Shown here: positions 1 through 8,744 of the stretch, piece after piece
Layout: every line of letters begins with the position of its first letter
How positions within the stretch are numbered: position 1 is the stretch's first letter
Source of the DNA: a virus
DNA: 12,248 nt
Direction: 5' to 3' (one strand)
Virus genome (UHGV): UHGV-0192790
Notes under the pieces: generated by a model
Database searches by the model: none
What the model saw: the letters and a program-made list of their open reading frames with translations, nothing else
Told to the model about the DNA's origin: nothing
Position numbers and translations under genes: made by a program

Positions 1-20
1 CAATAAACCACAATAACCAA

Positions 21-90
21 CATTTTTGTTGTCCCATTTTTGCCCCTTTTACGGCGTTTTGCCCCATTTTTGCCACCACAAAAAATCCTA
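21..90. repeat. Phased T-tract region with a 12 bp direct repeat (CCCATTTTTGCC at 33-44 and 63-74)
   Basis: T-runs centred near 24, 39, 48, 58 and 69 (about 10 bp periodicity) followed by an A6 run at 81-86, plus the repeated 12-mer. Lies downstream of the last tail gene on the minus strand. Confidence 0.5.
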
Positions 91-238
91 AACCACACAA
101 ATCTAAAACCTACAAATTGCCCCCTTGGATACTTTTCAATAGAATCTGTTCCGGCTGGAAATCATTCAATATTCGCACTATCGAAAGTTATCCAGCCAGC
201 CGCGGTACGTTCTTGCATACGACGTGCCGCGGCTTCTG

Positions 239-802
239 TTATTCTGGTACGAAATCCCTAACCGACTTCAAATCCTCCAGACTACTCAGCTCCTCTTTCA
301 TCTCACGCTGACGACGATAAATCTCGGCGTTGCGATCGACCTGCGCCTGCGCCATCGCGGCTGCCAGTTCTTCCAGTTCCGGCATCGACAGTTTCACCTG
401 TTGATTATCAGCGTCGCCCCACGCAAGGGCGGTTCGTGCCGTATCAGATTTTGCAGCCATTACCACCGGATAAAGACGAGCCATTGAGTCGGGGCCAGCG
501 TTCCAGGTGCGACCATTCCATTCGAACGTGAACGGCAGTGCCTCCTGTTCTGTGCGCCACGCCTCGATTTCCATCTTTTTGGCATCTTTTGCCGCTGCGA
601 TAAGTTCAGGCGTGACTGTAAACGGGGCGATTTCACCCCATTTGCCACTTTGCAGTTCCTGCCAGATTTGCTGGCCCGTCGGTGCGGTATCGTCTGCTGT
701 CGCTGTATACGGCAGGGCCTCGTCCATCCCCTCAAACAATACGTCGCAGTCAATCGCGCCGCTTTCCAGCCAGCGCGCATTTTCGATTTTTTTTACTTCC
801 AT
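239..802 (-). CDS. Putative tail-fibre accessory/chaperone protein (non-canonical; function uncertain)
   Basis: 187 aa ORF starting 8 nt after the stop of the 973 aa fibre gene. ATG at 802 preceded by AGGTGA about 4 nt upstream. Lacks the C-terminal EWP motif of classical Tfa, so the call rests mainly on position. Confidence 0.4.
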   Translation of the reverse strand: MEVKKIENARWLESGAIDCDVLFEGMDEALPYTATADDTAPTGQQIWQELQSGKWGEIAPFTVTPELIAAAKDAKKMEIEAWRTEQEALPFTFEWNGRTWNAGPDSMARLYPVVMAAKSDTARTALAWGDADNQQVKLSMPELEELAAAMAQAQVDRNAEIYRRQREMKEELSSLEDLKSVRDFVPE

Positions 803-809
803 AAATCAC

Positions 810-3731
810 CTACGCAACTCGTATAAACAGACCAATCATGACGCTGGCGGAACCGGCAGACCCCAGTCCATTCCCCGACAATGCCCGGTATGTGCCTGGC
901 ATTCCGCCACCGGAACCCTGAACATACACAGAAACACTGCCGTTGTATTTAACCCCGGTCCCGGTCGTACCGTAACACATCAATTCAACCGCACTCAGAC
1001 GTGACCCAGGATAGCTGTAACCTCGCTTTATTCTGCGGTCCGGGTCTGCGTTTCCCTGGCCGTTATATGCCGCCAGTATCAGGCTGCCAGTGCCGTACCA
1101 GGTATCTGTAGTTCCGGGAGCAAGGCCGGACAGAAGAGCAATAATGTCCTGCGAGGTTACCTTCAGTGATTCCCAGTCAATGAGATAACCATTTCCTGTG
1201 GTCCAGTAGCGGTTGTAATAAATGTGGCCATTAACACCATAGAAAATAATCGCCTTTGCTGTATTTATCGGACTCGGTGTGGCATATCTGGACTCAATCC
1301 ACCGAATACTGACAATCCCGCTGAACAGCACATTGGGTATAATTTTATTGCCACCCTCAACAAAATATTCTCCTGGCGTGACCTGTTTTACCCACACCAG
1401 AAAATCATTTTCTGAGTCAAAGCGGACAGTTTCGTTTGTGTTGAATATACGCCCAAAACCGAAGGCATCGGGAAGTGCCAGCCTGCCTTCCGTCCTGTCG
1501 CGAATATCACTCTGTGGCTCCATTGTGGCCGCCGCGCCCAGCGTGATATCGCCCCCTCCGAGCACGGAATGCCCGTTGATGCGCATAAAATCACAGGCAC
1601 GAAACTGTGGGATTTTTCCCCAGGCTGTAACGGATATGGCGGCGGCAACGTCGGCCACCGTGACGGCAGATGTCGCCCGGATTTGCAGGCGTCTGATGGC
1701 AGCCGTGGCTGCCGTCTGAGAAGTGGTGACCTTTGCCACAAAAGCAAAAAAATCACTCATGGCAAACGTATCAATGCCGTCGTAATTTGCCGTGAACAGG
1801 TCCGGGTAAGCACTCTGTATGGCGTCCAGAACCTGCCTGCCGTACCGTTCCACTTCTTCCTGTGTTTCCAGCACCCCAAAGCGCCACGGGGCCACAGAAA
1901 AACGGTCCTTATCAACAAAACGCCCTTCACCAGGCTCTGCCGGGTAATCCGTCTCGTTGTAATACGTCAGGAACCGTTTTTGTTCAGGTACAAACAACGC
2001 AAGCAGGCCAGCCCTGATGGTTTTCATGGCAGCGGTATATTCAGTTGCAGCAGTGGTATCTCCGGCAAGGTCAGCCAGTGTTTTCAGTGCACGTAAACCA
2101 GCATAAACCTCTGCGTTATCCTGACAAAAACACTGTGCATAAGCCCGGTCACCGGGTGCAAGATTGTGCTGGAATACGTTTACCAGACTGGCCACCGGAT
2201 TTATTTCAGCAACGATATTGAACTTTGCCACCTGTTTTATGATTTCCCAGCGGCTGGACCCGCCGATTCCGGCTGGCTCCTGTAACCAGGCACTGTCCGC
2301 AAATTCAGCAATGCAGGCGAACCAGAGCGCCGGGTAGCTGTCCGTGGAGTCCGGCGCAACGGGGGTATACAAATCCGGAGCCACATCCAGAAAAAAATAC
2401 TGCCATGCAGCCGGGATTCGGTTTGAGGGGCTTTTCAGGCACTCCAGCACAGCGGAGCCGGTCCGGACAAAATCTCCGGGGGCTACAGAGCTGATATCAG
2501 GCAACGTTTCCCCGGTGGTGCCCGCGATATTAACAAAAAAAAGCGTGCCGTTTATTGTCAGGCGCTGCCCGGCTTCATAACGGCAACCGGTCATAAACGG
2601 AACCACAAGCCCCAGTCTTAACGCCTTTTCGCAAATTGTCATACGGTCACTGAGGGAAAAGCATTTTCCTTCGCTTTCATACACGGCAAGAAACAGAAAA
2701 TACCAGTTGATACCACCGTTCGCATTCAGGTAGCGCCACAGCCCCTCGTAGCGCCCGCTGTTTATTCTCAACGCCTGTAGCTGAAGGTTCGCCTCTGTTA
2801 CCGAATAACGGGTTGATACTGAAAGGTGGTCATGAATGAATCCCTGCACATGCCCGGCCGCGTCTTTCGCCTCCTGAGCACTTATGGCGGCCGCGGCGGC
2901 ATTCTGACCGGTTTGTTTCGCATCCTCCGCAGTGGATTCCCTGTCCGCAGCCGTTGCAACCGCATTCTTTCTGGCTTCATCAGCAAAACGCTCTGCATCA
3001 TCACGCGCCGCTGCGGTTGCCTTCACATCCTGTGCGGTCTGCTGTGCACTTCCGGCAGCATTATCAGCGCAACTTTTCGCATTCTGCTCGCTCAGGGCGG
3101 CGTTATCCGCATTGTTTTTTGATTCCTCTGCGCTGGATGCTGAGTCATCTGCTGCCTGTTGAGCCTGCTTTACTGCATCTGTAACACTCTGCACACCCTG
3201 CTGTACCTGCCCGGCGTTCTGCTCAACTTCTGAGGCCAGCTGTGCAACGCGCTGTTTATCTTCGGCAACGGCTTCTGCATTCTGCTGTACGTTATCCGCC
3301 AGCATCTGGCAATCATCCTTAATCTTCTGCGCATCAGCTGCGTGTTGCCCGGACTGTCGTTCGCTTTCCGCTGCCGCTTCCGCGCTCTGCTGCGCCTGCG
3401 CCAACATTTCTTCGAAGCGTTTCACCACGTCGGGTTTGAGGTCGCCTTCATCAAGGGCAGTCAGAAAGTCGTTCAGCGTGCCGGGCTTTGAATCGTCGTA
3501 TACGGCAATGTCGCCAACACAGTACTCGTCGCGCCAGTCCTGTTTCAGATATACGCAGTATTTTCCGGTCTGCGCCTTAAAACAGTACTCGCCACAGTTT
3601 CCTGTCACCACATCAGCAACTGTGCGCATCACCACTTCTGACGTGTTTACCCGGGATTTCAGAATTATGTGGCATCCGGACATGGGGATGCCTGCGCCAT
3701 CAATCAGCGCACCTGATATCACTACAGACAT
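810..3731 (-). CDS. Tail fibre protein with lambda Stf-like N-terminal domain, long coiled-coil stalk and large C-terminal globular region
   Basis: 973 aa ORF. N-terminus MSVVISGALIDGAGIPMSGCHIILKSR...IAVYDDSKPGTLNDFL closely parallels the lambda side-tail-fibre N-terminus (MAVKISGVLKDGTGKP...ITVYEDSQPGTLNDFL). Residues about 110-300 are Ala/Gln/Glu/Asp-rich, typical of a fibre shaft. ATG at 3731, TAG at 810-812. Confidence 0.85.
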   Translation of the reverse strand: MSVVISGALIDGAGIPMSGCHIILKSRVNTSEVVMRTVADVVTGNCGEYCFKAQTGKYCVYLKQDWRDEYCVGDIAVYDDSKPGTLNDFLTALDEGDLKPDVVKRFEEMLAQAQQSAEAAAESERQSGQHAADAQKIKDDCQMLADNVQQNAEAVAEDKQRVAQLASEVEQNAGQVQQGVQSVTDAVKQAQQAADDSASSAEESKNNADNAALSEQNAKSCADNAAGSAQQTAQDVKATAAARDDAERFADEARKNAVATAADRESTAEDAKQTGQNAAAAAISAQEAKDAAGHVQGFIHDHLSVSTRYSVTEANLQLQALRINSGRYEGLWRYLNANGGINWYFLFLAVYESEGKCFSLSDRMTICEKALRLGLVVPFMTGCRYEAGQRLTINGTLFFVNIAGTTGETLPDISSVAPGDFVRTGSAVLECLKSPSNRIPAAWQYFFLDVAPDLYTPVAPDSTDSYPALWFACIAEFADSAWLQEPAGIGGSSRWEIIKQVAKFNIVAEINPVASLVNVFQHNLAPGDRAYAQCFCQDNAEVYAGLRALKTLADLAGDTTAATEYTAAMKTIRAGLLALFVPEQKRFLTYYNETDYPAEPGEGRFVDKDRFSVAPWRFGVLETQEEVERYGRQVLDAIQSAYPDLFTANYDGIDTFAMSDFFAFVAKVTTSQTAATAAIRRLQIRATSAVTVADVAAAISVTAWGKIPQFRACDFMRINGHSVLGGGDITLGAAATMEPQSDIRDRTEGRLALPDAFGFGRIFNTNETVRFDSENDFLVWVKQVTPGEYFVEGGNKIIPNVLFSGIVSIRWIESRYATPSPINTAKAIIFYGVNGHIYYNRYWTTGNGYLIDWESLKVTSQDIIALLSGLAPGTTDTWYGTGSLILAAYNGQGNADPDRRIKRGYSYPGSRLSAVELMCYGTTGTGVKYNGSVSVYVQGSGGGMPGTYRALSGNGLGSAGSASVMIGLFIRVA

Positions 3732-3754
3732 AGTTTTTCTCGCAATAAATTAAA

Positions 3755-4285
3755 TCAGGAAGAGGCTTCCGGAGAGACGGGCCATTCAATGGCGTTATAT
3801 GAGCTTTTATCAGCGATGGTGCTGAAATCCATCGCCTGCAGCGATTTCGCGTAAATGCGCCAGGCTGTCAGCTTTTCTTTTTCTTCATCACTGATGATTC
3901 CCAGAAGTAAATCCGTCTTCTTATCGGATATTTCCCGTTCGGCAATCGCAGTAAGACGTGCACGCTCCGACTCTGCCTGCTGCCGGTAGTCAACAGGGAC
4001 CGGCAGCACTTCACCGTCTTTATAATACCAGCGGGCTTCAATGCAAAATCCTTCCGGTAGTTCATCCACTTCCACAATGGTAAAACCAACGGGATAAAGA
4101 CGGGATGCATCTTCCGCCATGGAATAAATAACGCCGGTTTCAGGATGCGTGCACAGCTTGTATTTCTTCGTGAATTTATCCAGTGATTCATAAAAATCCT
4201 GCCCGTCTTCACTACGGAAATACTGAATGCCTTCACCATAAGGCATATCTTCAGGGTAGTAACGCGTAACGTTTACGAGTTCCAT
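3755..4285 (-). CDS. Tail fibre assembly protein (Tfa / P2 gpG / Mu U family)
   Basis: C-terminus ...YNAIEWPVSPE and internal ...EDGQDFYE..., ...DASRLYPVGFTIVEV..., ...RQQAESERARL... match the Tfa family pattern. The ATG at 4285 has a strong SD (AAGGAG, 6 nt spacer). The track ORF extends to 4321 but that extension overlaps the upstream gene and has no RBS. Stop TGA at 3755-3757. Confidence 0.85.
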   Translation of the reverse strand: MELVNVTRYYPEDMPYGEGIQYFRSEDGQDFYESLDKFTKKYKLCTHPETGVIYSMAEDASRLYPVGFTIVEVDELPEGFCIEARWYYKDGEVLPVPVDYRQQAESERARLTAIAEREISDKKTDLLLGIISDEEKEKLTAWRIYAKSLQAMDFSTIADKSSYNAIEWPVSPEASS

Positions 4286-4299
4286 TATTTTCTCCTTAA

Positions 4300-5682
4300 T
4301 TAACCTGATACGGATCGCCATGCACCATTAATATAAATCTGAGCCTGTTTGTAATACACGCCACCGATATTATCTGCAGAGTTACTGCCAGTGTCCTGAA
4401 CATTAATGCCTGACAAAACACAACCAGAAGGTGCCCGAAACGTCCAGCTGCGCTCATTCCCACCAGGGTTGTAAAACACCTCACTGGTGTACTGAAAATT
4501 CTGCACGCCCCCTGATTTGGTCTGGTAACGGGCATCAAAGTTTCCGTAGTCTGACGGTGTTACCCGCCCGGTAACGTTTACAGGTTTATTACTCTGGATA
4601 CTGCCAGCCTGAAAACGCAACACATGCACGCTATTGGCATAAACATCCAGCAGGCCATCACCATTCTGTTTCAGGCCGGTATCGTTATCCCCGAAAGCAA
4701 TTGAGTTTCCACCCAGCGCGTTCTGAACGCCGATACCCAGCGCACCATTGACCTGAGAACCGCCGCCAACAGACACTTTATGCGACATGGATATTTCACC
4801 CGTCCGCAGGTTAATAGTGAACGGACGAAGTGGACCAATATCGCCATTCTCGCCCTGACCTTCACTGGTAGGAATAAGGTGCAGGCACTCTTCCGAACGA
4901 CGAAAAATCAGACCAAAGGCTTCGTTGAAAATCCTCAGCGCATTAACTCCACGGATTTTCAGCCCCCCGGTCATCAAATCACCAGATTTTTTTACATATC
5001 GCAGATCAAAATCTGAATAGATATTGCCAGGGTTTATCACGCTGAAATAGCTTTTCTCGCTATCAAGAAGGCAAATCAAAGGAATACCCTTAATGATATC
5101 ATTCGCCACCAGCTCGGACTTGTTCCCCTTATAAAGTGGAAACGTACCAAGAACCTTTCCGCCCAGTGTCAATTGAAGCGTTGCGGCGTTGGTATTGTTC
5201 TGAACGGGGAAAACGATAATCGGGGTTCGTAGCGTCCAGTCCGAACCTCCATTAACAAAAAACGTCGCGGGAAGTTCCAGCGTCAGCGCGTTTGCAGTGC
5301 CACCAGCAACACCCGCAATATAATGACCGCTCTGAAGCTGCGCTATCTGTACGAAATAGTTTTCCGATCCACGCGTGGCAAAGTTAGCCACAACGTCATT
5401 AAGGGACCAACCTTTCGCGGTTGTTCCTTCCTGCCCACGAATGACTCTCAACACATCACCGCTTACCGATACCAGGTGACAAATCTCAAATGCAGACTCT
5501 TTATTATCGGTAAGCGTAATTTTTGCATAGACGCGTTGCCCGTTTGATTTATTTTCAAAATCAGCAGAAAGCAATTTTGCAAATTTAGCCCCTGTACCGG
5601 GCATTACCGGAATATCAGTCTGAATCGTGGTGATATCACCAGCCAGTGCTGAAACAACGTTATTGCCGAATCCAAGAATCAT
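4300..5682 (-). CDS. Tail fibre protein with P2 gpH / Mu S-type C-terminal receptor-binding region
   Basis: 460 aa. The segment NALGGNSIAFGDNDTGLKQNGDGLLDVYANS matches the conserved C-terminal region of P2 gpH-type fibres (as I recall it). Also contains an FDLRYVKKSGDLMTGGL motif typical of fibre proteins. Start ATG at 5682 overlaps the upstream stop as ATGA. Immediately followed by Tfa. Confidence 0.75.
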   Translation of the reverse strand: MILGFGNNVVSALAGDITTIQTDIPVMPGTGAKFAKLLSADFENKSNGQRVYAKITLTDNKESAFEICHLVSVSGDVLRVIRGQEGTTAKGWSLNDVVANFATRGSENYFVQIAQLQSGHYIAGVAGGTANALTLELPATFFVNGGSDWTLRTPIIVFPVQNNTNAATLQLTLGGKVLGTFPLYKGNKSELVANDIIKGIPLICLLDSEKSYFSVINPGNIYSDFDLRYVKKSGDLMTGGLKIRGVNALRIFNEAFGLIFRRSEECLHLIPTSEGQGENGDIGPLRPFTINLRTGEISMSHKVSVGGGSQVNGALGIGVQNALGGNSIAFGDNDTGLKQNGDGLLDVYANSVHVLRFQAGSIQSNKPVNVTGRVTPSDYGNFDARYQTKSGGVQNFQYTSEVFYNPGGNERSWTFRAPSGCVLSGINVQDTGSNSADNIGGVYYKQAQIYINGAWRSVSG

Positions 5683-6305
5683 TTTTGAATCACCGTTGTT
5701 GCATAGGAATAAATAAAAGGGAGTTTTACATACTTCTGGTCAATGGCATCTTTCAGAAAATAGCCTATACCATCACCATATTCTGGTATCTGAATAGAAA
5801 AAACACTGTCCGATACAGTCACGCTCACATCAAAAGTATGCTGCAACGGCGGGTCTATTCCGTTTTTCCCATGAATGAACCGCGCCACACGGCGCTTTAA
5901 CCAGTCAATGCAGAAATGCGAACCGTCAGCCTTATAAAAATTCCACGTTAATATTCGTTTGAAATAATCATCAGGGACATACGATGCCTGCCCCGGAACG
6001 TAATTCCGCATTGCTGCGTACGGGATCGTATTGTATTCAATGGTATCGTATGCACCGCGCGCAATAGCCTCCTCTGAAACCTGTAGTAAAGGTCTTTCAA
6101 CACCGTAAATACCAAGTGCTATCCAGTCCAGCAACTGCCCGGTTATTGATTCCGATGTCCAGCATGGCAATGCCAGATTGTTGAGTGAATCGAGGTATTC
6201 CTGAGCAATTTCATTGTATGCATCAAAGAACGCAACAACATTCGGATCATCTCTGTACTGCACAAACGGATAAGCAGGAAGTATTTTCTCAGTCAGATAT
6301 TGCAT
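5679..6305 (-). CDS. Putative baseplate wedge / tail-fibre connector protein (gpI/gp48-like by position)
   Basis: ORF between the J-like gene and the first fibre gene; stop TGA overlaps the fibre start (ATGA). The track start at 6362 would overlap the J-like gene by 74 nt and gives an odd N-terminus (MAIPIPIFRRWHHRFRSIS), so I prefer the in-frame ATG at 6305 (MQYLTEKILPAYPF...). Neither start has a strong SD. Family call is positional only. Confidence 0.4.
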   Translation of the reverse strand: MQYLTEKILPAYPFVQYRDDPNVVAFFDAYNEIAQEYLDSLNNLALPCWTSESITGQLLDWIALGIYGVERPLLQVSEEAIARGAYDTIEYNTIPYAAMRNYVPGQASYVPDDYFKRILTWNFYKADGSHFCIDWLKRRVARFIHGKNGIDPPLQHTFDVSVTVSDSVFSIQIPEYGDGIGYFLKDAIDQKYVKLPFIYSYATTVIQK

Positions 6306-7515
6306 ACTTATTGACCTGAACCTGTGATGCCACCGTCGAAAAATAGGAATAGGTATCGCCATAAACTAGGCTTGTGTCTTTTGCCGGAAGAACAATATGA
6401 CCGTTAATACCAATGCTCACACTGATTGTTGAGATCAACGTCGCATCAACCAGCAATTTTACGGAGCTGGTAAAAATATCCTGGATTCGCAGCAGATTTA
6501 TCGGGTGTCCGACTTCAATAGAATTGATGTAATCAGCAACGTTTTGCTGCACAGCCATAGCAATACCCGCCGGATCAACATAATCATCAGATACAGTGTT
6601 CCAGGTGATTAGCACCATGACGTTTTGTGATGACGGGATAACGAACGGCACCTGATAAACATCTGGCGAAACGGTTATTGAAACCGTGCGTTTTTCCACT
6701 GCCGCACCAGATGGATTGCTAACATCGTTGGTCAGTTTCGAAATATCCGGTACAGATTTGTAAATAGCATAAGCCACATCATACGGATCACCGCCACCAA
6801 CAACCGCAACCCATTTCCCCAGCGACGACTGCCGGAAAGAAATCAGGTTTTCTCGCACACCGCTTACTGATTTGAGCATCGCTTTAAAGCAATCCGGTGT
6901 TCCCTGCACACCAAACATGCCGGACTCCATGACTTCGGCGCGGTAAGATGCCCACGTTTGCGCCTCCTGACCTGGCATCCCTGCGGTAAGGTTCGTGCAT
7001 TTTACAGGCTGATCTTTGGGTACCGATGTAATGACCTGCGTTACGGTTCCTTCCGGTACAGCCCATGAGCCTGACGTTGTGGCCACACAGTAGACTGGCT
7101 CAGTCTGCCCGCTTTCCGGCACCACCGTATCGCGGGAAACTGCATACTGGTAGTTGCCGTCACCGACAACAAATCCTTTAGGGATACCAAACCCCGGCAA
7201 CGCCTCAAACACCACGTATACCGCCGTATTTGTACTTAATCCCTTCTGTGCTCCATAAATGTTTCCGAGTTGCATCAGTAACGGAATATTTGCGCCGTAT
7301 GGGCTTACGGAGTTAATAAGGTCCACCCGCGCCTGGTCTATTAATGCCAGCGCCCCGACTGCCGTGCTGGCAAGGTCAGTAATAAGCCCCGCCGGAAGGT
7401 TGGCTGTATATCCAGGTACTTTTTCAGCAACTCTGATGATAAGATTTGCAAGCAAATCATTGGGTGGCGTAGGCTGCGCCCCCGCACTGGTCATAGTAAT
7501 TGGTATTTCTGACAT
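6289..7515 (-). CDS. Baseplate J-like protein (P2 gpJ / Mu gp47 / T4 gp6 family), tentative
   Basis: 408 aa. Position upstream of the gpI-position and fibre genes. Internal pattern ...YCVATTSGSWAVPEGTVTQVITSVP... resembles the baseplate J family signature. ATG at 7515 preceded by GGAG with a 5 nt spacer. Confidence 0.5.
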   Translation of the reverse strand: MSEIPITMTSAGAQPTPPNDLLANLIIRVAEKVPGYTANLPAGLITDLASTAVGALALIDQARVDLINSVSPYGANIPLLMQLGNIYGAQKGLSTNTAVYVVFEALPGFGIPKGFVVGDGNYQYAVSRDTVVPESGQTEPVYCVATTSGSWAVPEGTVTQVITSVPKDQPVKCTNLTAGMPGQEAQTWASYRAEVMESGMFGVQGTPDCFKAMLKSVSGVRENLISFRQSSLGKWVAVVGGGDPYDVAYAIYKSVPDISKLTNDVSNPSGAAVEKRTVSITVSPDVYQVPFVIPSSQNVMVLITWNTVSDDYVDPAGIAMAVQQNVADYINSIEVGHPINLLRIQDIFTSSVKLLVDATLISTISVSIGINGHIVLPAKDTSLVYGDTYSYFSTVASQVQVNKYAISD

Positions 7516-7555: not shown

Positions 7556-8716
7556 TTATTCAACCTCTTCTAAACTGCTCGCTCTGGACCCTCGGCGGAA
7601 ATTATCATCATTTTTAACATACTCGTATGAATCCAGAATCAAACCAGATATGCGAAGTATATCTTCCGGATTAGTTATATGTATCCTTTTACCATCCGTA
7701 TCAAGTCGAGCTCGTCTTATTTCATTCAACTGAACTTCACTAAGCGAAATAGGTAAAGTTATAAATGAAGATTTTTTATCATAAAATCTTAACAGCCATC
7801 TATTAGTTTTACCATTCAATAGTATACCAAAATATGACTCAGTATCTTTATATTCTATATTATCTTCTGTTTGTATGATTTGTTTTACCCTTTCAAATAG
7901 CTCCAATTCTTTGGCTGTGGTTATTATGTTGGGGTTTTCTTCATCAACAATGGCGTTATTAACTTGTGTATCCGTTGCATCATTTTCTTTAGTTTGCTCT
8001 ACCGGTTGTGTAGATAGCCCGGAAACCACCATTGCGCTAACAGCGCGCTCAACGGCCTGTTTAACTAATGGAGTCACGAACTCAAGAAATCTCTGATTAA
8101 GTTGTCTCTCAATATTTGAACGACTAGCAACATATCGAACAAACTCCAGATCAACTTCACGAAGACTAGAACTGATTGTTTTAGTAAATGAATTCAAATA
8201 AACACTTTCTTCAGCCAGTGTCCGTAAAGCCTCTGGTTTGAATTTATCATAACGAAAACGAAATAATTGTGTAATATCGGAGTGAGTTAGAGAATCCATT
8301 CTTATTTTTAAAAACGGCGTTGAAGCCATTATGTTTTTTTGTTTCAAATCCGTAAAAAAACGCCATTCAACACCATTTGTAATGGCTGATATAGTAACTT
8401 CCGGTGTTGAATTAAAATATCTTGATAGCTGTGGGCAGTGATTATCAATTTGTTCTGAAAACGATTTCGCCTCAATGAACATCACAGGAACATCATGACA
8501 AAATAAAGCGTAATCAACCCGTTCATTAGCCTTAACCCCGGGGAAGTCAGCACTATACTCAGCTTTGACTTTTCTTGGATCATACGGAGTAAAACCAAGA
8601 ATATCTAGTAATGGCATAATGAGTGCTTGTTTTGTCGTTTCTTCAGTTGTACAAAACACCCCCATTTTTGCAACATGCTCTGTGTGTATTTTTAACTTAT
8701 TTGCAAAATTTTCCAT
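7556..8716 (-). CDS. PD-(D/E)xK nuclease-family protein with HsdR-N-like N-terminal domain plus unknown C-terminal domain; candidate moron (defence or homing-type endonuclease)
   Basis: AT-rich ORF. N-terminal region ...QALIMPLLDILGF...ERVDYALFCHDVPVMFIEAKSF...CPQLSRYF...ISAITNGVEWRFF carries the hallmark D / E-x-K / Q...Y / TNG..W motifs of the type I restriction enzyme HsdR N-terminal nuclease fold. Preferred start is the ATG at 8716, preceded by GGAGG with an 8 nt spacer. The track start at 8731 has no SD and adds only MEETS. Stop TAA at 7556-7558. Confidence 0.7.
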   Translation of the reverse strand: MENFANKLKIHTEHVAKMGVFCTTEETTKQALIMPLLDILGFTPYDPRKVKAEYSADFPGVKANERVDYALFCHDVPVMFIEAKSFSEQIDNHCPQLSRYFNSTPEVTISAITNGVEWRFFTDLKQKNIMASTPFLKIRMDSLTHSDITQLFRFRYDKFKPEALRTLAEESVYLNSFTKTISSSLREVDLEFVRYVASRSNIERQLNQRFLEFVTPLVKQAVERAVSAMVVSGLSTQPVEQTKENDATDTQVNNAIVDEENPNIITTAKELELFERVKQIIQTEDNIEYKDTESYFGILLNGKTNRWLLRFYDKKSSFITLPISLSEVQLNEIRRARLDTDGKRIHITNPEDILRISGLILDSYEYVKNDDNFRRGSRASSLEEVE

Positions 8717-8744
8717 GCTTGTCTCCTCCATGGTAACAATATGT

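What the first reader, a model, noticed from the sequence alone, without database searches (positions are those of the whole stretch)
239..5682. Two complete fibre-chaperone cassettes in tandem, same orientation
A P2 gpH-type fibre with a canonical Tfa is followed directly by a second, Stf-type fibre and a 187 aa non-canonical accessory gene. Unlike Mu/P1-type invertible fibre segments, both cassettes are co-oriented and no invertase is present. This suggests either simultaneous display of two fibre types (dual receptor specificity) or a recent cassette acquisition. The 187 aa protein lacks the Tfa C-terminal signature and may be a different kind of chaperone.
Basis: partly seen in the sequence, partly recalled or inferred. 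Interest (0 to 1): 0.45.

Follow-up and report, generated by a model that had tools for sequence, protein, structure and literature searches.

The report
Add-on enzymatic side-fibre cassette in prophage
An E. coli prophage with a contractile tail encodes its normal tail fibre and helper protein, followed by a portable second fibre that carries a sugar-cutting-enzyme-like domain and its own, different helper; the layout is common in gut-bacterial prophages, and only the enzyme-like domain is unusual.

Summary
Four co-oriented minus-strand genes fill 239-5682: fibre 1 (460 aa), a Caudo_TAP Tfa (188/176 aa), fibre 2 (973 aa) and a 187-aa protein. There is no invertase and there are no flanking inverted repeats; the prophage ends just beyond the 187-aa gene.

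The labels need correcting:
- Fibre 1 is not P2 gpH-type. It has no DUF3751 domain and no P2-like hit.
- Fibre 2 is Stf-like only in its N-terminal collar domain (PF08400; lambda Stf, XM1 gp40).
- The 187-aa protein is a DUF4376 protein, a class shown by experiment to chaperone tail fibres in Alteromonas V22 and Campylobacter CJIE1.

The tandem layout is not new. It is in phiP27 (L54-L57) and Rac-SA53, and the Tfa-fibre 2 junction is in 107 of 5426 complete E. coli genomes. The fibre 2 + DUF4376 pair is a portable unit, also found in Mu-like and P2-like prophages and next to lambdoid-type Stf fibres.

Display of both fibres on one virion is plausible but untested.

The parts
4300..5682 (-). 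Fibre 1 (460 aa), the phage's own baseplate fibre. The N-terminal ~230 aa are specific to the Rac-SA53-type tail. The C-terminal half is a gp37/S/H-type region that needs a chaperone to fold.
   Evidence: PHROG 25419 (residues 1-254) and 6859 (residues 226-459); PF20744 gp37_trimer at its cut-off. PDB matches: 8jov tail fibre at the N-terminus, S16 gp37, and the phiTE short-fibre tip. 94% identical to Rac-SA53 tail1; only residues 230-459 match phiP27 L54. No DUF3751 domain and no P2-like hit.
3755..4321 (-). Canonical tail-fibre assembly protein (Caudo_TAP). The longest ORF is 188 aa; the likely start is at 4285, giving 176 aa.
   Evidence: PF02413 6.4e-23 and PHROG 136 4e-56. Gene callers use the 176-aa form.
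810..3731 (-). Fibre 2 (973 aa), an accessory collar-anchored side fibre with an inserted enzyme-like module.
   Evidence: The ORF is intact. The identical protein is on at least 10 contigs. The domains are listed in the next four rows.
3330..3731 (-). Fibre 2 residues 1-134: collar (anchor) domain, PF08400.
   Evidence: PF08400 2e-61. PDB 9e7m (lambda Stf N-terminus) 1.4e-16 and 7kjk (XM1 collar spike gp40) 2e-7. 95.5-97.8% aa identity to Rac-SA53 and phiP27, but below 60% to 266 other phage records, those listed being mostly lambdoid or Stx-converting phages.
2808..3329 (-). Fibre 2 residues ~135-308: Ala/Gln-rich helical shaft. It contains the recombination joint.
   Evidence: Nucleotide identity switches here. 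Positions 288-2909 are 98.6% identical to the Mu-like prophage L009, while 3231-6500 are 91% identical to Rac-SA53. The flanking region is helical in the AF2 models.
1608..2807 (-). Fibre 2 residues ~309-708: (alpha/alpha)6-barrel glycoside-hydrolase-like module with a small beta insertion.
813..1607 (-). Fibre 2 residues ~709-973: conserved distal tip domain of the L56 type, the presumed client of the DUF4376 protein.
   Evidence: 33-36% identical to the C-termini of phiP27 L56, Rac-SA53 tail3 and the C7 and PEC422 fibres, with 53 invariant positions. No Pfam or PDB relative.
239..802 (-). 187-aa DUF4376 protein, the presumed trans-acting chaperone or cap for the fibre 2 tip.
   Evidence: PF14301 6.2e-16 (59 bits against a cut-off of 25) and PHROG 1141 1e-88. 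1818 protein clusters match at E <= 0.001 in the public protein collection; those listed come mainly from E. coli and Salmonella. It lies directly after a fibre gene in phiP27, Rac-SA53, SerU-LTIIb, Av-05 and PhiR5_2. It travels with the fibre tip in one 2.6-kb block at 98.6% identity.
1..238 (.). Non-coding end of the prophage; the host genes uspF and ompN follow just beyond.

Best explanation
The region is the distal end of the late operon of a temperate, contractile-tailed E. coli prophage of the Rac-SA53 type. It holds two units of different kinds.

Unit 1 is the phage's own baseplate fibre. Its N-terminus is specific to this tail type. Its gp37/S/H-like C-terminal half is folded with the help of a canonical Caudo_TAP Tfa.

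Unit 2 is a self-contained, horizontally mobile accessory side-fibre cassette. The fibre starts with the Ig-like collar domain that anchors lambda Stf around the tail tube and Vibrio phage XM1 gp40 at the neck. A helical shaft follows, then a rare (alpha/alpha)6 glycosidase-like module, then a conserved tip domain. The following 187-aa DUF4376 protein most likely trimerises at the fibre's C-terminus. There it would nucleate folding in trans, like an intramolecular chaperone domain supplied as a separate protein, and might stay on transiently as a cap.

What is shown: the gene structure, the domain identities, the fold of the central module, the portability of the cassette, the conservation of the cassette, and the absence of an inversion system.

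What is inferred: that both fibres are mounted on one virion at different sites, giving two surface specificities; that the glycosidase-like module is catalytically active on a host surface glycan; and where the collar docks on a sheathed tail.
For: - Gene order, intact ORFs and tight spacing with no internal promoter or terminator signal.
- Domain assignments.
- The Rac-SA53 relative has a tail sheath, so the tail is contractile.
- The same four-gene order occurs in phiP27 and Rac-SA53 and in strain C7. The Tfa-to-collar junction is present at 80% coverage or more in 107 of 5426 complete E. coli genomes.
- Fibre 2 + DUF4376 also lies in Mu-like transposable prophages in front of com/mom, directly after gene D in P2-like prophages and away from any fibre gene in the 5 kb shown, and next to lower-identity Stf-type fibres with no fibre 1 or Tfa found upstream in Shigella/E. 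coli. It is therefore an autonomous module.
- The two fibres have unrelated N-terminal anchors: no BLASTP hit between fibre 1 and fibre 2. Fibre 1's anchor changes with the baseplate, while fibre 2's does not.
- DUF4376 proteins were shown to be needed for fibre function in V22 and CJIE1, and are modelled as IMC-like trimers capping the fibre tip (PMC7289586, PMC10579305, PMC7882524).
- In Salmonella diarizonae, DUF4376 proteins occupy the Tfa positions of a real invertible fibre segment, and one of them is a Caudo_TAP-N + DUF4376 hybrid.
- The fibre tip and the DUF4376 gene moved together as one 2.6-kb block at 98.6% identity.
- The central module has an (alpha/alpha)6 glycosidase fold with conserved acidic residues. 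It also occurs on fibres with other N-terminal adaptors, including T7-type ones.
Against: - There are no virion proteomics or imaging data for this phage or its close relatives, so co-display is not shown.
- A collar that rings the tail tube, as in lambda, cannot do so under a sheath. The docking site is unknown.
- The collar is 95-98% identical in phages with no other detectable shared structural protein. That is odd for a specific protein-protein anchor.
- Sequence support for glycosidase family membership is borderline (PF22422 at about its cut-off; only 6 of 40 family representatives hit it). The catalytic residues were not mapped.
- One set of E. coli genomes, several of them from humans, has deleted fibre 2, so it is dispensable at least for the lysogen.
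- The chaperone is far more conserved (70-91%) than its presumed client tip (33-36%), unlike classical Tfa-tip covariation.
Confidence: 0.6

Rival explanations
1. Branched fibre. Fibre 2 does not dock on the tail or neck. Instead it docks through its collar domain on the fibre 1-Tfa complex, so that each baseplate fibre carries a second, enzymatic branch, as in the DT57C LtfA/LtfB or G7C gp63.1/gp66 adaptor systems.
For: Between Rac-SA53 and phiP27, the only structural proteins with any BLASTP similarity are the C-terminal half of fibre 1 (74%), Tfa (43%), fibre 2 and DUF4376. Yet the collar is 95.5-97.8% identical. The Tfa 3' end and the collar form one conserved DNA block, 93% identical to phiP27 over window 3214-3907. 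Mu Tfa is reported to stay bound to its fibre (North et al. 2019, as cited in PMC7882524).
Against: P2-like prophages place the cassette after gene D, not next to any fibre or Tfa gene in the 5 kb shown upstream. Some Shigella/E. coli loci have PF08400 fibres with no fibre 1 or Tfa found upstream. Both solved structures show the collar binding rings of tail or neck proteins, not fibres (PMC12617516, PMC10457771). Tfa is only 43% identical where the collar is more than 95% identical.
Confidence: 0.15
2. Spare or silent cassette. Only one fibre is assembled on particles. The second cassette is a recently acquired or decaying passenger at the prophage end, which serves as raw material for recombination rather than as a displayed fibre.
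For: The cassette sits at the extreme end of the prophage, a typical moron position. Its distal half was exchanged recently. It is deleted in one set of E. coli genomes and frameshifted in Shigella prophage remnants.
Against: Both ORFs are intact here and on at least 10 independent contigs. The arrangement is kept across at least four tail lineages and about 2% of complete E. coli genomes. Fibre 2 has a complete anchor, shaft, tip and chaperone. The spacing suggests co-transcription with the late genes. The active-site-like residues of the enzyme-like module are conserved.
Confidence: 0.12
3. The 187-aa DUF4376 protein is a structural distal tip or adhesin that stays on fibre 2 and makes the receptor contact, like gp38 of T2 and T6, rather than a folding chaperone.
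For: PHROG 1141 and several GenBank records call it 'tail fiber protein'. The A5 and V22 DUF4376 proteins co-elute with their fibres and were proposed to act as 'caps'.
Against: It is among the most conserved proteins of the cassette, 70-91% identical across phages whose fibre 2 ranges from 477 to 1061 aa and whose tips are only 33-36% identical. That is the opposite of what is expected for a receptor-contacting adhesin. V22 gp27 separates easily from the fibre, and the fibre binds cells after maturation. DUF4376 proteins sit in the Tfa slots of an invertible segment.
Confidence: 0.1

Closest known systems
Enterobacteria phage phiP27 L54-L57 and Escherichia phage Rac-SA53 tail1-tail4
   Same: The same four-gene order at the prophage end: fibre, Caudo_TAP Tfa, PF08400 fibre, DUF4376 protein. 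Collar 95.5-97.8% identical, DUF4376 protein 84% identical. Rac-SA53 also shares the whole baseplate module at about 91-92% nucleotide identity.
   Different: Their fibre 2 lacks the (alpha/alpha)6 module. phiP27 L56 is 490 aa (anchor plus tip), and Rac-SA53 tail3 is 1061 aa with repeated tip-like segments. The tips are only 32-36% identical to the one here. phiP27 has a Mu-like baseplate with no detectable similarity to this one.
Lambda (Ur-lambda) Stf-Tfa side tail fibres
   Same: Homologous N-terminal collar domain (PDB 9e7m, E 1.4e-16; 45% identity). An accessory fibre encoded at the end of the tail genes, followed by its own helper gene.
   Different: Lambda is a siphovirus; 12 collar domains ring the gpV-gpM junction of the tail tube. 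Lambda Stf has a gp37-like tip and a Caudo_TAP Tfa. Here the tail is sheathed, the tip belongs to a different family, the fibre carries an enzyme-like module, and the helper is a DUF4376 protein.
Vibrio myophage XM1 collar spike gp40 (PDB 7kjk)
   Same: A contractile-tailed phage whose extra fibre starts with a homologous Ig-like N-terminal domain plus a helical stalk (E 2e-7 over residues 1-201). Six trimers attach to the neck proteins gp4 and gp5.
   Different: The sequence relationship is distant. None of the four window tail proteins searched has a detectable PDB/XM1 relative. Attachment at the neck is only an analogy here.
Alteromonas phage V22 gp26/gp27 and A5 gp8/gp9; Campylobacter CJIE1 H-fibre plus downstream gene
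   Same: A DUF4376 protein encoded directly after a tail-fibre gene. It was shown by experiment to be required (V22, CJIE1) or to bind the fibre (A5). It is modelled as a trimeric cap resembling an intramolecular chaperone domain.
   Different: Different fibres and hosts. The N-terminal halves of the chaperones are unrelated. No experiment exists for the enterobacterial subfamily, which is unusually conserved relative to its client tips.
Mu G segment and P1 C segment (S-U / S'-U' with Gin or Cin)
   Same: Two alternative fibre-tip-plus-chaperone units at the end of the tail operon. In Mu-like prophages L009 and L010, this very fibre 2 + DUF4376 cassette lies between Tfa and com/mom, the position that the G segment and gin occupy in Mu as I recall it.
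   Different: No invertase, no inverted repeats, both units co-oriented, and fibre 2 has its own complete N-terminal anchor instead of sharing a constant part. A true invertible segment with DUF4376 chaperones does exist elsewhere (L030).
GH15-type and related (alpha/alpha)6 glycosidases (glucoamylase, glucodextranase, dextran dextrinase, MmpH)
   Different: Only 9-12% identity. No significant sequence hit to any PDB chain. Pfam MGH1-like_GH is only at its threshold. The module is embedded in a phage fibre and carries a small beta insertion that weakly resembles a CBM5/12 chitin-binding domain (E 0.037).

Membership tests
Caudo_TAP tail fibre assembly proteins (Pfam PF02413; lambda Tfa, Mu U, P2 G) | The 188-aa protein matches the family profile above the curated cut-off and lies directly after a fibre gene. 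| tested here: met
   81.8 bits against a cut-off of 22.1, E 6.4e-23; PHROG 136 4e-56; the gene starts within or just after the fibre 1 stop.
Caudo_TAP tail fibre assembly proteins (Pfam PF02413) | The 187-aa protein matches the family profile or a profile of the neighbouring Tfa family. | tested here: not met
   No PF02413 hit at E <= 0.01. hhalign of a 7-sequence DUF4376 alignment against a 5-sequence Tfa alignment gives probability 0.65%. Both profiles are shallow.
DUF4376 (PF14301) tail-fibre chaperones (V22 gp27 type) | DUF4376 domain in the C-terminal half of a ~190-240-aa protein. | tested here: met
   59.2 bits against a cut-off of 25; residues 70-174.
DUF4376 (PF14301) tail-fibre chaperones (V22 gp27 type) | Encoded immediately downstream of, and co-inherited with, a tail-fibre gene. 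| tested here: met
   7-nt gap after fibre 2. The same adjacency occurs in phiP27, Rac-SA53, C7, SerU-LTIIb, Av-05, PhiR5_2 and P2-like and Mu-like prophages. Tip and chaperone transferred together in one block.
DUF4376 (PF14301) tail-fibre chaperones (V22 gp27 type) | Required for folding, trimerisation or activity of the cognate fibre. | not testable with these tools
   Needs co-expression experiments. Shown only for V22 and CJIE1 (PMC7289586, PMC7882524).
P2 gpH-type tail fibres | N-terminal DUF3751 / gpH baseplate-attachment domain. | tested here: not met
   No such Pfam hit for fibre 1. tblastn of its N-terminal 230 aa against 50,697 phage records gave 30 hits, none from a P2-like phage.
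P2 gpH-type tail fibres | C-terminal gp37/S/H-like region followed by a Caudo_TAP chaperone. | tested here: met
   PF20744 at its cut-off (21.7 bits). S16 gp37 1.3e-5 and phiTE short-fibre tip 1.3e-14. Tfa lies downstream.
Lambda Stf-type side tail fibres | N-terminal PF08400 collar domain. | tested here: met
   206 bits, full-length match over residues 1-134; PDB 9e7m 1.4e-16.
Lambda Stf-type side tail fibres | gp37-like distal part folded by a Caudo_TAP Tfa. | tested here: not met
   Fibre 2 has no gp37-type hit, the tip family has no Pfam or PDB relative, and the helper is a DUF4376 protein.
Invertible fibre segments (Mu G, P1 C, e14 P) | Serine invertase gene, flanking inverted crossover sites, and opposed alternative tip and chaperone genes. 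| tested here: not met
   No Resolvase domain in any window ORF scanned. The best inverted repeat is 28 nt at 71%. All genes are co-oriented. Host genes follow.
Six-hairpin (alpha/alpha)6 glycoside hydrolases (GH15/GH63-like) | (alpha/alpha)6 barrel fold. | tested here: met
Six-hairpin (alpha/alpha)6 glycoside hydrolases (GH15/GH63-like) | Sequence membership of a curated GH family. | tested here: inconclusive
   PF22422 scores 25.2 bits in the whole protein and 27.5 bits for the isolated domain, against a cut-off of 27. Only 6 of 40 family representatives hit it. The PDB profile search found nothing significant.
Six-hairpin (alpha/alpha)6 glycoside hydrolases (GH15/GH63-like) | A catalytic acid/base pair in the barrel centre, and hydrolytic activity. 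| not testable with these tools
   D161, D173, D176, D250 and E253 (domain numbering; add 288 for fibre 2 numbering) are conserved in at least 90% of 40 representatives. They were not superposed on known active sites, and there is no assay.
Neck-attached collar spikes (XM1 gp40) | Attachment of the N-terminal domain to the connector and tail-terminator proteins. | not testable with these tools
   Only N-terminal homology was shown. The docking partner is unknown.

The most novel reading that the evidence does not exclude
The PF08400 fibre + DUF4376 pair is a universal 'plug-in' side-fibre cassette. Its nearly invariant collar can mount on contractile tails of unrelated lineages (Rac-SA53-type, phiP27/Mu-like, P2-like) as well as on lambdoid siphoviruses, through a generic ring-binding or fibre-binding mode that has not been described for myoviruses. 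In this phage it would deliver a GH15-like (alpha/alpha)6 glycosidase. That fold was not mentioned in a 129-enzyme catalogue of phage depolymerases, and no predicted viral structure in BFVD matched it well. It would act on a host surface glycan.
Probability: 0.3. Interest if true: 0.6.

Novelty: new variant of a known kind. Interest (0 to 1): 0.4.

Why it matters
Temperate coliphages carrying toxin genes (Stx2e in phiP27, LT-IIa in Rac-SA53) use this tail-end module, so its fibres help decide which strains can be converted.

If both fibres are displayed, a small swappable cassette gives contractile-tailed prophages a second, enzyme-bearing specificity. Its conserved anchor and chaperone would make it an attractive chassis for retargeting phages or tailocins.

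Two observations are cheap to test: a collar that is almost identical on unrelated tails, and a glycosidase-like fold that is unusual for phage fibres.

The tandem layout itself is ordinary and already present in public annotations.

Tried and rejected
- An AF2 model of fibre 2 residues 285-973 from an 8-sequence alignment was unusable (pLDDT 40.7). It was replaced by a central-domain model built on 40 representatives.
- phmmer of baseplate J and of the 227-aa and 335-aa proteins against the PDB found nothing, so an XM1-like tail could not be shown by sequence.
- Profile searches of the central module and of the tip domain against the PDB were not significant.
- BFVD Foldseek gave no whole-domain viral match.
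- hhalign between the DUF4376 and Tfa families was negative, so the claim in PMC7882524 that DUF4376 equals the TfaMu C-terminus was not reproduced.
- PADLOC and NCBIfam added nothing.
- The genome-contig scan returned only 16 loci from three genomes and was of limited use as a census.
- Paper searches on the PDB codes 8JOV and 9CUY, on phiP27/pPE4 and on PF08400 gave no functional data on dual fibres in these phages.
- An invertible segment was considered and rejected (no invertase, no inverted repeats).
- fibre 2 as a pseudogene was considered and rejected. PGAP marks it so in five genomes; in L009, the one checked, the 874-aa ORF is intact.
Full report
OBSERVATION

The window is read entirely on the minus strand as a phage tail and baseplate operon. 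Within 239-5682 there are four tightly packed, co-oriented genes:
- Fibre 1: 5682-4300, 460 aa.
- A tail-fibre assembly protein: 4321-3755, 188 aa. Gene callers on identical contigs start it at 4285, giving 176 aa.
- Fibre 2: 3731-810, 973 aa.
- A 187-aa gene: 802-239.

The gaps are 23 nt and 7 nt. Promoter- and terminator-like sites are no more frequent than in shuffled sequence, which fits co-transcription. The profile hits are unambiguous.

No ORF in the window has a recombinase domain. The best inverted repeat is 28 nt at 71% complementarity. On contigs carrying the identical 973-aa protein, the next genes are the host genes uspF and ompN, and Rac-SA53 annotates attB about 80 nt beyond window position 1. 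The described arrangement is therefore real, complete, and not part of an inversion system.

WHAT THE PARTS ARE

Fibre 1 is not 'P2 gpH-type'. It has no DUF3751 domain. Its N-terminal 230 aa hit only Rac-SA53 and PP818812 (98%) plus distant fibre N-termini from Yersinia, Klebsiella and Burkholderia phages, and no P2-like phage. Its C-terminal half belongs to the broad gp37/S/H family (gp37_trimer at its cut-off, S16 gp37, phiTE short-fibre tip). It is followed by a canonical Caudo_TAP protein (E 6e-23).

Fibre 2 is modular.
- Residues 1-134 are the PF08400 domain (2e-61). This domain is homologous to the lambda Stf N-terminus solved in Ur-lambda (9e7m, 1.4e-16) and to the collar spike gp40 of Vibrio myophage XM1 (7kjk, 2e-7). 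In lambda, twelve such domains ring the gpV-gpM junction. In XM1, six trimers bind the neck proteins gp4 and gp5.
- A helical Ala/Gln-rich shaft follows.
- Residues ~309-708 are an insertion relative to phiP27 L56.
- Residues ~709-973 are a tip domain, 33-36% identical to the C-termini of L56, Rac-SA53 tail3 and other such fibres, with many invariant positions.

THE 187-AA PROTEIN

It is a DUF4376 protein (59 bits against a cut-off of 25; PHROG 1141, 1e-88). It has no Caudo_TAP signal, and hhalign against the local Tfa family is negative.

The class is known:
- V22 gp27 (DUF4376) is essential for active gp26 fibres.
- A5 gp9 binds its fibre.
- Both are modelled as trimeric caps resembling the intramolecular chaperone domains of K1F and T5 fibres (PMC7289586, PMC10579305).
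- The Campylobacter CJIE1 H-fibre needs its DUF4376 neighbour (PMC7882524).

Independent context found here supports the same role. In Salmonella diarizonae (L030), a real invertible segment contains a resolvase, a fibre C-terminal fragment and two opposed DUF4376 genes in the Tfa positions. One of these is a Caudo_TAP-N/DUF4376 hybrid. PHROG 11571 likewise matches both the Tfa N-terminal half and the DUF4376 half.

Against an adhesin role, the protein is 70-91% identical across phages whose fibre 2 tips are only about a third identical.

THE CENTRAL MODULE

The word-indexed protein search found only 7 clusters among 5.8 billion. The exhaustive profile search found 146 representatives among 1.84 billion, of which 32 had E <= 1e-30. 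Members sit on fibres with different N-terminal adaptors: PF08400, T7-type, and a third kind seen in P0002 and P0003.

Sequence evidence is only borderline (PF22422 at about its cut-off). Several Asp/Glu residues are conserved in at least 90% of the 40 representatives. No whole-domain match exists among predicted viral structures, and a 129-enzyme depolymerase catalogue does not mention such folds.

The fold assignment is shown. Catalysis and substrate are inferred.

HOW COMMON, AND HOW MOBILE

The same four-gene order is in phiP27 (L54-L57), Rac-SA53 (tail1-4) and strain C7. The Tfa-to-collar junction is present in 107 of 5426 complete E. coli genomes, and the collar in 142.

The fibre 2 + DUF4376 pair also occurs in other settings:
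- In Mu-like transposable prophages, just before com/mom, with intact ORFs despite PGAP pseudogene flags.
- Directly after gene D in P2-like prophages, with no fibre or Tfa gene in the 5 kb shown upstream.
- Next to lower-identity Stf-type fibres in Shigella/E. coli, with no fibre 1 or Tfa found upstream.

Window 288-2909 covers most of the DUF4376 gene, the tip and the enzyme-like module. It is 98.6% identical to the Mu-like prophage. From 3231 onward the window instead follows Rac-SA53 at 91%. The distal fibre and its helper therefore moved recently as one block, with the joint in the shaft.

One set of E. coli genomes, several from humans, has deleted fibre 2. Shigella copies are frameshifted. 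The GH-bearing version is rare, in 5 of 5426 genomes.

MECHANISM

The best-supported reading has two parts. Unit 1 is the phage's own baseplate fibre with its Tfa. Unit 2 is an autonomous accessory side-fibre cassette added at the end of the late operon.

The two fibres have unrelated anchors, so they should not compete for one site, and co-display is the natural expectation. It is still an inference. The tail is contractile, since the relative has a sheath protein (phrog_205). A lambda-style ring around the tube is therefore unlikely, and neck attachment as in XM1 is the closest precedent.

A puzzle remains. Rac-SA53 and phiP27 share no BLASTP-detectable structural protein outside the four cassette genes, yet their collars are 95.5-97.8% identical to this one. 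The other 266 phage records with a collar match, those listed being mostly lambdoid or Stx-converting phages, are all below 60%. Fibre 1's anchor, by contrast, changes with the baseplate. Either the collar binds a generic ring feature, or it docks on fibre 1 or Tfa to form a branched fibre. The position of the cassette in P2-like prophages argues against the second option but does not exclude it.

COMPARISON AND NOVELTY

The tandem layout has been present in public records since the phiP27 genome record, and it is common. DUF4376 chaperones and dual-RBP phages are both known. What is new in degree is threefold:
- an (alpha/alpha)6 glycosidase-like module embedded in a collar-anchored fibre;
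- the evidence that this cassette plugs into at least four unrelated tail lineages with an almost unchanged anchor;
- a chaperone much more conserved than its client tip.

I rate this a new variant of a known kind, of moderate interest (0.4). The decisive tests are virion proteomics and cryo-EM, co-expression of fibre 2 with and without the helper, and glycan assays.

Noticed in passing
window 7556-8731 (-): A 391-aa ORF with HSDR_N and HSDR_N_2 domains ('type I restriction endonuclease' N-terminus; PHROG 4225 'endonuclease'). Its GC is 0.33-0.37 against about 0.5 around it. It sits inside the baseplate module, between the 115-aa gene and Baseplate_J. Rac-SA53 and contig L004 carry an AntA antirepressor plus two hypothetical genes in the same slot, so this is a variable moron site. 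No PADLOC hit.
   Followed up: partly
L030 7354-10082 (Salmonella enterica subsp. diarizonae NZ_VXJV01000003): A genuine invertible fibre segment in which DUF4376 proteins take the Tfa positions: a resolvase, a fibre C-terminal fragment with gp37_trimer, a hybrid Caudo_TAP-N + DUF4376 protein, and an opposed second DUF4376 gene.
   Followed up: partly
L009 and L010 6427-11125 (E. coli XJ34 and RM11911): Mu-like transposable prophages, inserted in mdtO and gspE, carry the same GH-bearing fibre 2 and DUF4376 gene before com/mom. PGAP annotates fibre 1 and fibre 2 as truncated pseudogenes. In L009, the locus checked, intact ORFs of 331 aa and 874 aa are present, so this is a likely annotation artefact.
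   Followed up: partly
L032-L034 (E. coli PEC422, Sx181-0-1, OkiPb01703): P2-like prophages carry a PF08400 fibre + DUF4376 cassette directly after late gene D, with no fibre or Tfa gene in the 5 kb shown upstream. In Sx181-0-1 the cassette is disrupted.
   Followed up: partly
L014 4883-5011 (E. coli AST19) and hits H168-H174: A set of E. coli genomes, including AST19, B7A and several other human isolates, matches only the first ~40 nt of fibre 2, inside a gene annotated as DUF4376. In AST19 the second fibre is gone and a DUF4376 3' remnant lies directly after Tfa.
   Followed up: partly
PP818812.1 (hit H2): 'Actinobacillus phage vB_Apl-pPE4' is about 93% identical in nucleotides to this E. 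coli prophage over 60% of the window. The stated host looks doubtful.
   Followed up: no
L015-L029 (Shigella flexneri SFBU1023 and E. coli ECMA0423): Each of these genomes carries 7-8 copies of the DUF4376 gene in prophage remnants, several next to frameshifted PF08400 fibres.
   Followed up: partly
window 2433-2606 (-), fibre 2 residues ~376-433: A small beta insertion in the (alpha/alpha)6 module ('YEAGQRLTINGTLFFVN') weakly resembles the CBM12 chitin-binding domain of chitinase A1 (E 0.037). It may also explain the many short Foldseek matches to phage fibre proteins in BFVD.
   Followed up: no
L008 6467-10629 (Rac-SA53): The closest characterised relative carries heat-labile enterotoxin IIa genes and a pertussis-like toxin pair upstream of the structural genes. 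phiP27, which shares the fibre cassettes, carries Stx2e.
   Followed up: no
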